A stretch of DNA of 27,558 bases, taken from the UHGV virus genome UHGV-1805288; one strand, written 5' to 3'. This document shows, one piece after another, positions 5,540-6,730 of this stretch. The notes below the pieces were generated by a model. That model was not told the DNA's origin. It made no database searches and was given only the letters and a program-made list of their open reading frames with translations. Positions within the stretch are counted from its first letter, which is position 1, and the number at the start of each line of letters is the position of its first letter. A program made the position numbers and the translations under genes. Origin of the DNA: a virus.

Positions 5540-6730
5540 TTACTTTTTAATTAATACCAATTTATCTTTGGCACGAGTAATAAGTGTGTAGAGATAACGT
5601 TTATGGGTTTCTTTATCGGATGGGTAACTTTCTTCAAAACCCAAAACTTTATCATATTCACTACCTTGTGCTTTCCAACAGGTAATAGCATAAGCATACG
5701 CAAAATCAAGTGGTGGATCTAAACGTGCTTGTTCTGAATTTTTTTTCATGCGATAGATTTGCGGGCCAGTTAGCGTTTGCTAACCAGTTAGAAGTTGTTT
5801 ATAATCAATACCAAGATTTGTAAATTGATTACTTATATCATCAATATGAATATCAGTCCACATATACTATATAGGTTGAGAAATTAACCAACGAGGGAAA
5901 TAGGCAGTCTACACTTTATAATTATCAATGATACCAATAGTGCCATTTGTTAGTGCATCGCCATTAGTAGATACAATATCCCAGTTATTATGTAAACCAA
6001 TTACTTTGTCTCCAATAGCAGGACGATTAGATGGATAACCTTTCTAAGCGCGGACTACATTATTGATCATTGTGCGAGTATCATTTCGTGCGCAAATTAC
6101 CTAATCCGCCCATTGATACATCCCTGCTGTAATTTGATTATTAGCATAAATCTATACTTGGTCATTAGTGCCCCTATATGTATCTAATAAATTGCCATTT
6201 CGTATCCACATTGATAAACGAATAATTTCGCTATCTTGTGCCTGTCGCATTATTTCATCTAGAAAAACATGTGGATGGTCAAGCACATGATTATCTTCAT
6301 CTTCATCAATGGGCGGAAGCTAGCCCGGGTCTCCAGCCGCGATTACATAAGGATGATGTGAAAGTAGTAATTTCCACATTGTTTTAGGGAGCATAGAGAT
6401 TTCATCAACTACTACTATTGGATATTTAATACTAGGACGAGGTTCAAATTTATATCCACCATTCGGCATTTGGCTAGCTTTATAAAGGAGTTTATGTGCA
6501 GTAATAGCATTAGGACATCCTTTCTATTGGAGAACTGTAGCCGCTTTACCAGTAAAGGCTACATAACATACATCTTCTTCGGGGTCAACTTCTAATGCGG
6601 AAATGATAAATTTAATCAGGGTGCTCTTGCCACTTCCTGCGTAACCTCCTATACAAGTATATAATTCTCCGGCTCGATAACGCTCCACTGCGGTCCGTAA
6701 TCCTTCTTCTTGTTTTTTAGTTAATATCAT
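5540..6730 (-). CDS. SF1 DNA helicase, RecD/Dda/Pif1-like
   Basis: Track ORFs 6524..6730 and 5540..5749 are in one frame; the 774 nt between contain 8 in-frame TAG and no TAA/TGA. Walker A GGYAGSGKST; motif II VVVDEISML; motif III AAGDPG-TAG-LPPI; C-terminal ITCWKAQGSEYD and LYTLITRAKDKL. Start ATG 6730; stop TAA 5540..5542. Confidence 0.8.

What the first reader, a model, noticed from the sequence alone, without database searches (positions are those of the whole stretch)
6311..6337. A TAG codon sits on the invariant Gln of helicase motif III, pointing to TAG->Gln
In the RecD/Dda-like helicase the sequence reads AAGDPG-TAG-LPPIDED. SF1 helicases of this family carry GDxxQLPP at this position, with Q essentially invariant. 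The TAG at 6320..6322 is exactly at that Q, which is direct in-sequence evidence for the identity of the inserted residue (code-15-like) rather than Trp, Tyr or another amino acid.
Basis: partly seen in the sequence, partly recalled or inferred. Interest (0 to 1): 0.8.

Follow-up and report, generated by a model that had tools for sequence, protein, structure and literature searches.

The report
Amber codon read as glutamine
A phage helicase gene has the stop codon TAG exactly where all its relatives have an essential glutamine, which shows that this phage reads TAG as glutamine, a code change already well documented in gut phages.

Summary
Both the observation and its interpretation hold, but the phenomenon is already known.

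**What is there.** On the minus strand, TAG at 6320..6322 is codon 137 of an intact 396-codon SF1B RecD/Dda-like helicase (5540..6730). The context is AAGDPG-TAG-LPPIDED, which is helicase motif III.

**Evidence at that position.**
- In 110 related helicase genes the codon is CAG (51), CAA (47) or TAG (12), and nothing else.
- Five cultured standard-code phages and three solved structures (RecD2, Dda, 9kwf) have Gln there.

**Evidence across the window.**
- There are 67 in-frame TAGs and no gene ends in TAG.
- Only real sense codons of relatives were counted. On that count Gln is the best reading of TAG by about 35 natural-log units over Lys.
- Among relatives over 90% identical, TAG is replaced only by CAG or CAA, with one TCG exception.

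**Comparison with known cases.** This is genetic code 15, established in crAss-like, Lak and phAss-1 phages. The window is a new member: a large phage with a Pol III-alpha replication module.

**Mechanism.** No tRNA lies in the window, but related contigs encode a tRNA(CUA), so the decoding route is inferred.

**By-product.** Many of those suppressor tRNAs carry an extra hairpin that looks like a glutamine anticodon loop. I found no description of this.

The parts
6320..6322 (-). TAG codon 137 of the helicase, at the invariant Gln of motif III
   Evidence: It aligns to Q in 9kwf, RecD2 and Dda. The column is CAG 51, CAA 47, TAG 12 in 110 related loci.
6308..6340 (-). Helicase motif III, AAGDPG-TAG-LPPI (aa 131-141)
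5540..6730 (-). SF1B RecD/Dda-like helicase gene: 396 codons, 8 in-frame TAGs, TAA terminator
   Evidence: Pfam AAA_30 2.7e-18, AAA_19, UvrD_C_2 3e-14. PDB hits RecD2 and Dda. 4791 homologues found.
6101..6103 (-). TAG codon 210 (WAD-TAG-VIC), a second near-invariant Gln column
   Evidence: Gln in 5 of 5 cultured phages. Column is CAA 47, TAG 44, CAG 16, ACT 3, GAA 2.
6524..6526 (-). TAG codon 69; Gln is the plurality residue in relatives
   Evidence: Q 19 of 38.
6152..6154 (-). TAG codon 193, in a variable column
6044..6046 (-). TAG codon 229, in a variable column
5909..5911 (-). TAG codon 274, in a variable column
5867..5869 (-). TAG codon 288, in a variable column
5780..5782 (-). TAG codon 317; the 96%-identical relative L001 has a true Gln codon here
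6620..6646 (-). Walker A / motif I, GYAGSGKST
6392..6415 (-). Motif II, VVVDEISM
5567..5686 (-). Motifs V (ITCWKAQGSEYD) and VI (LYTLITRAK), downstream of all eight TAGs
8261..10000 (-). RecJ-like DHH nuclease gene with 12 in-frame TAGs (48% of its TAG+CAA+CAG codons)
   Evidence: Columns 168 and 563 are Gln in 21/22 and 39/39 relatives.
26342..27448 (-). Endolysin (Amidase_2 + SH3_3) with 8 in-frame TAGs
   Evidence: Column 97 is Gln in 88 of 88 relatives.
19731..25168 (-). TAG-free block: ATP-dependent DNA ligase, GyrA-like and GyrB-like topoisomerase subunits
   Evidence: 0 TAG against 45 CAA/CAG, Fisher p=3.9e-6. The same avoidance is seen in relatives. The ligase Pfam hit is; the gyrase labels were read from the translations and not checked against Pfam.

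Best explanation
The window is part of a large double-stranded-DNA phage genome that uses genetic code 15, in which TAG means glutamine. The helicase gene is intact. Its essential motif III glutamine, which in SF1 helicases couples ATP hydrolysis to DNA binding (established knowledge), is simply written TAG instead of CAG or CAA.

**Shown**
- TAG is a sense codon throughout the window.
- It behaves as a synonym of CAA/CAG.
- It is never used to end a gene.

**Shown in relatives only**
- Related contigs carry one tRNA with anticodon CUA inside a cluster of 9-22 tRNA genes. Their helicase is about 64% identical to the window's and their gene order matches.
- That tRNA has the acceptor features of tRNA-Gln: a mismatched 1:72 pair and G73.

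**Inferred**
- TAG-free genes (ligase, gyrase-like subunits, almost all of Pol III alpha) can be made at once. TAG-rich genes (this helicase, the RecJ-like nuclease, homing endonucleases, the endolysin) have to wait for the suppressor. This gives a staged expression programme.
For: - **Position.** The TAG and its context are.
- **Codon census.** At column 137 in 110 loci: CAG 51, CAA 47, TAG 12. L007 has CAG where L008-L010, which encode the same protein cluster, have TAG.
- **Cultured standard-code phages.** H1, AR9, LPJP1, SA1 and phiCbK have Q at columns 137 and 210.
- **Window-wide usage.** 67 TAGs in 8047 codons. Terminators are TAA 19 and TGA 6.
- **Likelihood.** Gln is best by 26.5 natural-log units with 35 columns and by 34.9 with 53 columns.
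- **Conserved columns.** 8 of 9 are Gln, P about 9e-13.
- **Close relatives.** The window's TAG pairs with TAG 119 times and CAG 7 times, and with no other codon. Their TAG pairs with the window's CAA 4 times and TCG once.
- **Residue profile.** TAG columns match true Gln columns.
- **Suppressor tRNA.** tRNA(CUA) is present in 16 related contigs and in 11 of 11 clade-A contigs fetched through a neighbouring gene. The Rfam tRNA model scores it 56 bits.
- **Gene-specific avoidance.** TAG avoidance is conserved in relatives: ligase 0/246, GyrB 0/473, GyrA 2/569, against RecJ-like 23%.
- **Literature.** 10.1101/2021.08.26.457843, PMC9523058, PMC10607447, and PMC12636597 (most phage tRNA-CUA insert Gln in E. 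coli extract).
Against: - No tRNA of any kind lies in the window.
- No tRNA(CUA) was found in about 4.9 Mb of loci flanking the replication and lysis modules.
- The closest long contig (IMGVR_UViG_3300045988_122222, 97-99% nucleotide identity, a partial 108 kb) was never recovered with a suppressor tRNA. For this exact phage the tRNA step therefore rests on 64%-identity relatives.
- A few well-conserved TAG columns are not Gln: Lys at GIY-YIG column 7 and at RecJ-like column 59.
- The suppressor tRNA of many relatives has a long extra arm, a feature otherwise typical of Ser, Leu and Tyr tRNAs.
- There is no proteomic evidence, and the host is unknown.
Confidence: 0.9

Rival explanations
1. TAG is a true stop here. 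The helicase and the other interrupted genes are pseudogenes, or are expressed as fragments.
For: Under the standard code the gene breaks into pieces of at most 68 aa. No tRNA(CUA) lies in the window.
Against: - Domains and motifs continue in frame across all eight TAGs.
- The same TAGs are conserved in seven independent contigs.
- 67 TAGs all lie in the coding frame of dense minus-strand genes, and no gene ends in TAG.
- TAG exchanges only with CAG or CAA, with one TCG exception, among close relatives.
Confidence: 0.01
2. TAG is a sense codon but encodes another residue, for example Lys, Glu, Trp, Tyr, Ser, Leu or pyrrolysine.
For: - Two conserved TAG columns align to Lys.
- The relatives' suppressor tRNA has a class-II-like long arm.
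- Its anticodon arm differs by one base in the anticodon (plus two stem bases) from a tRNA-Trp(CCA) in contigs of the amidase/NrdG-related clade.
- Isotype models predicted Trp, Ile or Tyr for about 30% of phage tRNA-Sup genes (PMC10879173).
Against: - Log-likelihood relative to Gln: Lys -34.9, Glu -42.1, Ser -55.6.
- Gln is 2-4% at true K, E, S, Y, W, L and R columns but 32% at TAG columns.
- Motif III shows no codon other than CAA, CAG or TAG.
- The acceptor stem and D stem of the suppressor match tRNA-Gln(UUG) of related contigs, with a U1 mismatch and G73.
Confidence: 0.03
3. TAG is read as Gln, but without a phage suppressor tRNA. Decoding would come from near-cognate readthrough by host tRNA-Gln, from a suppressor-carrying host, or from a co-infecting phage.
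For: - No suppressor tRNA was found for the window's own lineage.
- Only about 40% of TAG-recoded phage genomes have a detectable one (10.1101/2021.08.26.457843).
Against: - Eight to twelve TAGs per gene cannot be passed by low-efficiency readthrough (inference).
- All 11 clade-A relatives examined at the tRNA cluster carry exactly one tRNA(CUA).
- The nearest contig is incomplete, so absence there is not informative.
Confidence: 0.06

Closest known systems
Genetic code 15 (TAG->Gln) in gut phages: crAss-like, Lak and the 'gemstone' clades (Borges et al., bioRxiv 10.1101/2021.08.26.457843; Peters et al. 2022, PMC9523058)
   Same: In-frame TAGs in conserved genes align to Gln. TAG is absent as a terminator. 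The genome is low in G+C (about 31%). The lysis gene is heavily recoded. Recoding of replication genes is variable. Relatives carry a suppressor tRNA(CUA).
   Different: This is a different phage lineage, with a Pol III-alpha, DnaB, RecJ-like and gyrase-like replication module. Core replication genes (SF1 helicase, RecJ-like) are among the most recoded here. There is no proteomic proof for this lineage. Whether it belongs to a named clade such as Agate could not be tested.
Phage phAss-1 (OQ749652), 'Caudoviricetes code 15 clade' (Babkin et al. 2023, PMC10607447)
   Same: TAG is recoded. The replication module is homologous (Pol III alpha 39%, RecJ-like 35%, plus YorF, AAA_24, gyrase and ligase). 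A tandem long (88 nt) and short (72 nt) tRNA-Sup-CTA pair is of the same types as in the window's relatives.
   Different: Only 25-39% protein identity. G+C is 44.5% against 31%. Gene order differs around NrdD and the tRNAs. It is not the same genus or family-level group.
Enterococcus phage H1 / EF1 / VRE9 group (OP534061 and others), cultured, standard code
   Same: These are the best annotated relatives. The helicase is 39.6% identical, and the gene order is the same: YorF-like, AAA_24, DnaB, primase, RecJ-like, RecD-like helicase, Pol III alpha.
   Different: They use the standard code, with true Gln codons at the positions compared. Their 19-tRNA cluster has no suppressor.
RecD2 (D. radiodurans, 3e1s) and T4 Dda (3upu), SF1B helicases
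   Same: Motifs I, Ia, II, III, V and VI are collinear. The motif III GDxxQ(L/I)xP glutamine is at the aligned position.
   Different: The matches are distant (phmmer E-values 2.5e-12 and 2.5e-9). The window protein is shorter than RecD2 (396 against 574 residues). The Pfam PIF1 model is below threshold.
E. coli amber suppressors supE (tRNA-Gln CUA) and Su7 (tRNA-Trp CUA, which is charged with Gln); from my own knowledge
   Same: A CUA anticodon combined with Gln acceptor identity gives Gln insertion at UAG by host enzymes.
   Different: Those are single-base mutants of cellular tRNAs. Many suppressors in the window's relatives carry an additional hairpin with a Gln-type anticodon loop.

Membership tests
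Code-15 (TAG->Gln) recoded phage | In-frame TAG codons inside otherwise intact, conserved genes | tested here: met
   67 TAGs in 20 of 25 ORFs. Domains continue across them.
Code-15 (TAG->Gln) recoded phage | TAG is not used as a terminator | tested here: met
   Terminators are TAA 19 and TGA 6.
Code-15 (TAG->Gln) recoded phage | TAG positions align to Gln in homologues, counting real sense codons only | tested here: met
Code-15 (TAG->Gln) recoded phage | Phage-encoded suppressor tRNA with anticodon CUA | tested here: inconclusive
   Absent from the window. Present in 16 related contigs and in 11 of 11 clade-A relatives. Not recovered for the nearest contig.
Code-15 (TAG->Gln) recoded phage | Gln found at TAG sites in expressed protein | not testable with these tools
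   Needs mass spectrometry. This has been done only for crAss-like phages (PMC9523058).
Code-15 (TAG->Gln) recoded phage | The host uses the standard code | not tested
   The host is unknown. A Firmicute host is inferred from the cultured relatives.
SF1B RecD/Dda-like helicase | Walker A (motif I) and DE (motif II) in an AAA_30/AAA_19 core | tested here: met
   GYAGSGKST and VVVDEISM. Pfam AAA_30 66.9 bits and AAA_19 54.2 bits.
SF1B RecD/Dda-like helicase | Motif III GDxxQLPP | tested here: met
   GDPG-TAG-LPP, with TAG read as Gln.
SF1B RecD/Dda-like helicase | C-terminal UvrD_C_2 domain with motifs V and VI | tested here: met
   PF13538, 53 bits, residues 345-394. Aligned to RecD2.
SF1B RecD/Dda-like helicase | 5'->3' DNA unwinding activity | not testable with these tools
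   Needs a biochemical assay.
Pif1 helicase family | Pfam PF05970 at or above its gathering score | tested here: not met
   19.5 bits against a cut-off of 25.9, and only the N-terminal 118 residues match.

The most novel reading that the evidence does not exclude
In this phage lineage TAG->Gln may be implemented by an unusual five-armed amber suppressor tRNA. Its decoding arm carries CUA. A second hairpin, in the variable region, keeps a glutamine anticodon loop (N-U-[C/U]-U-G-A-R). This extra arm could supply the position-36 identity element that the CUA anticodon has lost. That would keep the tRNA a substrate of the host glutamine-charging pathway, either GlnRS or non-discriminating GluRS with GatCAB.

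- The hairpin is supported by covariation.
- It is specific to CUA tRNAs: 28 of 36 unique long CUA tRNAs have it, against 1 of 122 other long tRNAs.
- It occurs in 7 of 11 clade-A relatives of the window and in phAss-1.
- I found no description of it in six literature searches.

Its function is pure inference. The class I synthetase geometry argues against direct reading of a variable arm by the anticodon-binding domain. It could also be an evolutionary remnant of a duplicated anticodon arm, kept for some other reason.
Probability: 0.25. Interest if true: 0.7.

Novelty: new member of a known kind. Interest (0 to 1): 0.25.

Why it matters
- **Annotation.** The window must be translated with table 15. 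Under the standard code the helicase, the RecJ-like nuclease, the endolysin and most other genes are shredded. The large public protein collection searched here has already translated TAG as Q for relatives, so protein-level alignments are circular evidence.
- **Biology.** This adds a large Pol III-alpha-type phage lineage to the code-15 phages, probably one that infects Firmicutes. Core replication enzymes are heavily recoded while gyrase, ligase and Pol III avoid TAG. That pattern is useful for testing the idea that recoding times gene expression.
- **The code change itself is not news.** The only potentially new item is the Gln-anticodon-like extra arm on the relatives' suppressor tRNAs. 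If functional, it would bear on how a suppressor keeps its amino-acid identity.

Tried and rejected
- **Protein-level homologue alignment.** Q was the commonest residue at 5 of 8 TAG positions. I rejected this as primary evidence once look-up of encoding contigs showed 'translates_to_query: no'. The database had translated the relatives' TAGs as Q. I replaced it with codon-level counts.
- **Near-identical DNA search in GenBank phages.** Nothing useful came back.
- **Suppressor tRNA search by walking from anchor genes.** I used the helicase, amidase, NrdG and a phosphatase, each with a 10 kb flank in up to 80 contigs (scans), plus a custom CUA stem-loop scan of 4.87 Mb. No amber suppressor was found.
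- **What finally worked for the tRNA.** The anticodon arm of phAss-1's tRNA-Sup served as a DNA pattern.
- **Reaching the tRNA region of the nearest contig (_122222).** I tried through a neighbouring AAA ATPase. It failed.
- **Rfam search of the window.** No tRNA and no group I intron model hit the two homing-endonuclease insertions. There was one sub-threshold LOOT RNA hit. Around the relatives' suppressor tRNA there was no ribozyme hit.
- **Sequence similarity of the suppressor to other tRNAs of the same clusters.** This did not resolve the isotype. Gln, Asp, Arg and Trp scored alike, so I relied on the acceptor and D-stem comparison instead.
- **Pif1 membership.** Rejected, because the Pfam score is below threshold.

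Full report
**1. The observation**

The + strand reads ...ggaag cta gcccgggtctcc... with 'cta' at 6320..6322. On the minus strand this is TAG, in the frame that gives ...HHPYVIAAGDPG*LPPIDEDEDNHV....

The reading frame 5540..6730(-) starts at ATG and ends at TAA. It has 396 codons, of which eight are TAG: codons 69, 137, 193, 210, 229, 274, 288 and 317 (coordinates).

**2. The gene**

- Pfam places AAA_30 (2.7e-18), AAA_19 and Viral_helicase1 on the N-terminal half. UvrD_C_2 (3e-14) falls on residues 345-394, downstream of all eight TAGs.
- phmmer against PDB finds 9kwf_B, RecD2 (3e1s) and T4 Dda (3upu). The printed alignments put codon 137 on the Q of GDPAQLPPV, GDTDQLPPV and GDNKQIRPV.
- Motifs I, Ia, II, V and VI are also present and collinear.
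- The PIF1 model is below its threshold.

The protein is therefore an SF1B RecD/Dda-like helicase, and the TAG sits on the motif III glutamine.

**3. A trap in the homologue data**

A search of the large protein collection returned 4791 homologues, and Q was invariant at columns 137 and 210. When I fetched the DNA, none of the genes 'translates to the query' under table 11, and the relatives themselves contain in-frame TAGs. The collection had already translated TAG as Q. Those Qs are partly circular, so all later counts use only real sense codons of the relatives.

**4. Codon-level test**

I collected loci around homologues of several window genes. I then translated them with TAG as X and aligned all 25 window ORFs to them.

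- **First set: 49 loci, 35 informative TAG columns.**
  - Gln is the plurality residue in 15 columns.
  - Of 9 columns conserved at 80% or more, 8 are Gln and 1 is Lys.
  - A likelihood built from the substitution pattern of the same alignments favours Gln by 26.5 natural-log units over Lys.
  - The chance of 8 Gln in 9 is about 9e-13, given that Gln makes up 2.4% of conserved columns.
- **Extended set: 291 loci, 53 of the 67 TAG columns.**
  - Gln wins by 34.9 units.
  - Only 9 of 19 'conserved' columns are now Gln. Six of the ten non-Gln columns come from one gene (18091..19065), with only 15-22 homologue codons per column. I take those homologues to be closely related to one another, so that conservation there carries little information; I did not measure this.
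- **Residue profile.** At TAG columns it is Q 0.32, K 0.12, E 0.10. At true Gln codons it is Q 0.46, K 0.11, E 0.09. At K, E, S, Y, W, L and R columns Gln is only 2-4%.
- **Close relatives (over 90% identical).** The window's TAG is matched by TAG 119 times and by CAG 7 times, and by nothing else. Their TAGs face the window's CAA 4 times and TCG once.
- **Motif III column in 110 loci.** CAG 51, CAA 47, TAG 12. Within one protein cluster, L007 has CAG where L008-L010 have TAG.
- **Cultured standard-code phages.** Enterococcus H1, Bacillus AR9, Listeria LPJP1, Staphylococcus SA1 and Caulobacter phiCbK all have Gln at columns 137 and 210.

**5. Window-wide picture**

- Treating TAG as sense raises coverage of the window by ORFs of 100 aa or more from 62% to 90%. 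The coding is almost entirely on the minus strand.
- There are 67 in-frame TAGs in 8047 codons, which is 23% of TAG+CAA+CAG. The 25 genes end in TAA (19) or TGA (6).
- Usage is very uneven:

| Gene | TAG as share of TAG+CAA+CAG |
|---|---|
| RecJ-like | 48% |
| endolysin | 53% |
| ORF 17448..18083 | 67% |
| helicase | 35% |
| ligase, GyrA-like, GyrB-like | 0 of 45 (Fisher p=3.9e-6) |
| Pol III alpha | 1 of 48 |

- The same gene-specific avoidance holds in relatives: ligase 0/246, GyrB 0/473, GyrA 2/569, Pol III under 1%, RecJ-like 23%.
- This fits the published idea that standard-code-compatible genes are expressed before the code switch (10.1101/2021.08.26.457843). Here, however, several replication genes are on the recoded side.

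**6. What phage this is**

- No near-identical record exists in GenBank phages.
- The best cultured relatives are Enterococcus phages H1, EF1 and VRE9. Their helicase is 39.6% identical and their replication genes are in the same order.
- Contigs 97-99% identical to the window exist in Logan and IMG/VR.
- A clade of 100-197 kb IMG/VR contigs shares about 64% helicase identity.
- phAss-1, a published code-15 phage, has a distantly homologous replication module (Pol III alpha 39%).

**7. Mechanism**

- The window has no tRNA.
- Walking out from four anchor genes in up to 80 relatives each found no amber suppressor.
- Using the anticodon arm of phAss-1's annotated tRNA-Sup-CTA as a DNA pattern hit at least 120 IMG/VR stretches.
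- A 43-nt version hit 16 contigs. Seven belong to the helicase clade and nine to the amidase/NrdG clade.
- All 11 clade-A contigs fetched through a neighbouring AAA ATPase carry exactly one tRNA(CUA) in a 9-22-tRNA cluster next to tail-fibre-like genes.
- The tRNA has a U1 mismatch with position 72 and G73. Its acceptor and D stems match tRNA-Gln(UUG) of related contigs. Rfam's tRNA model scores it 56 bits.
- Phage tRNA(CUA) genes tested in E. coli extract mostly insert Gln (PMC12636597).

A phage suppressor charged by host enzymes is therefore the best-supported route. For this exact phage it remains inferred, because the nearest contig is partial and never yielded the tRNA.

**8. A by-product worth recording**

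- **Two length classes.** Of 138 CUA tRNAs in the pattern-hit loci, 57 are 86-95 nt long.
- **The extra hairpin.** The added roughly 20 nt form a hairpin directly after the anticodon arm.
- **Structure support.** In a 23-sequence anchored alignment its 3-4 bp stem covaries:
  - 81.8% of cells are paired, against 59% in shuffles (0 of 500 shuffles reach this).
  - 18 cells show changes on both sides, against 5.4 expected.
  - Controls with the partners slid by one to three columns give 27-51% pairing.
- **The loop.** Its 7-nt loop is N-U-[C/U]-U-G-A-R, with U35 and G36 invariant. That is a glutamine anticodon loop (CUG in 20 sequences, UUG in 3). It differs from the real loop, CUCUAAA, only at position 36.
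- **Specificity.** The motif is in 28 of 36 unique long CUA tRNAs, against 1 of 122 other long tRNAs.
- **Literature.** Six searches found no description of it.
- **Function.** Untested. It may keep Gln identity, or it may be a remnant of a duplicated anticodon arm.
- **Sampling bias.** My sample is restricted to tRNAs with one particular anticodon-arm sequence.

**9. Verdict**

The finding is real and correctly interpreted, but it re-derives genetic code 15, which is established by alignment and by mass spectrometry in other phages. The window is a new member of a known kind. Interest for the finding itself is low to moderate.

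Noticed in passing
L314 9078-9167 (-); also L365, L336, L295, L304 and L420-L428; phAss-1 OQ749652 62445-62532: Many phage amber-suppressor tRNAs, including those of the window's relatives, are 86-95 nt long. They carry an extra covarying hairpin after the anticodon arm. Its 7-nt loop is a Gln-type anticodon loop (N-U-[C/U]-U-G-A-R). It is specific to CUA tRNAs (28 of 36 against 1 of 122). I found no description in six literature searches.
   Followed up: partly
window 19731-25168, and 306-5310: The ligase and the GyrA-like and GyrB-like genes have no TAG at all (0 against 45 CAA/CAG). Pol III alpha has 1 in 48. Neighbouring genes use TAG for 35-67% of their Gln codons. 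The same gene-specific avoidance holds across relatives, which suggests an early, standard-code-compatible gene set.
   Followed up: partly
window 12136-13313: A 1178-bp insertion carrying a LAGLIDADG endonuclease ORF (12396-13226, 5 TAGs) splits the DnaB-like helicase gene. It is precisely absent from the 99%-identical contig L002. No Rfam group I intron model matches it.
   Followed up: partly
window 1781-2938: An 1158-bp insertion carrying a GIY-YIG endonuclease ORF (1912-2730, 3 TAGs) splits Pol III alpha. It is absent from L003 and L011. L011 instead has a different 950-bp GIY-YIG insertion at the position equivalent to window 4097, and an HNH ORF inside NrdD.
   Followed up: partly
window 6101-6103: A second TAG in the helicase (codon 210, WAD-TAG-VIC) also sits on a near-invariant Gln. 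It is Gln in 5 of 5 cultured phages, and the column is CAA, CAG or TAG in 107 of 112 related loci.
   Followed up: yes
protein collection hits P0001-P0120; L001-L010: The public protein collection has already translated in-frame TAGs of these phages as Q. Protein-level alignments therefore give circular support for TAG=Gln. Only codon-level comparison is valid.
   Followed up: yes
L420-L430 (clade-A contigs): Contigs whose neighbouring AAA ATPase is 90-92% identical carry either the 90-nt long-arm suppressor or an unrelated 72-73-nt tRNA(CUA) at the same place in the tRNA cluster. The suppressor gene seems to be swapped between close relatives.
   Followed up: no
window 12126-12205 (-): A weak, sub-threshold Rfam match to LOOT RNA (28.6 bits against a gathering score of 46.4, E=0.086) lies inside the DnaB insertion. 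It is probably chance.
   Followed up: no
window 19388-19730: A 343-bp stretch has no ORF of 60 aa or more, between the ligase gene and a small ORF. It is the longest apparently non-coding gap in the recoded gene array. No tRNA or Rfam hit falls in it.
   Followed up: no
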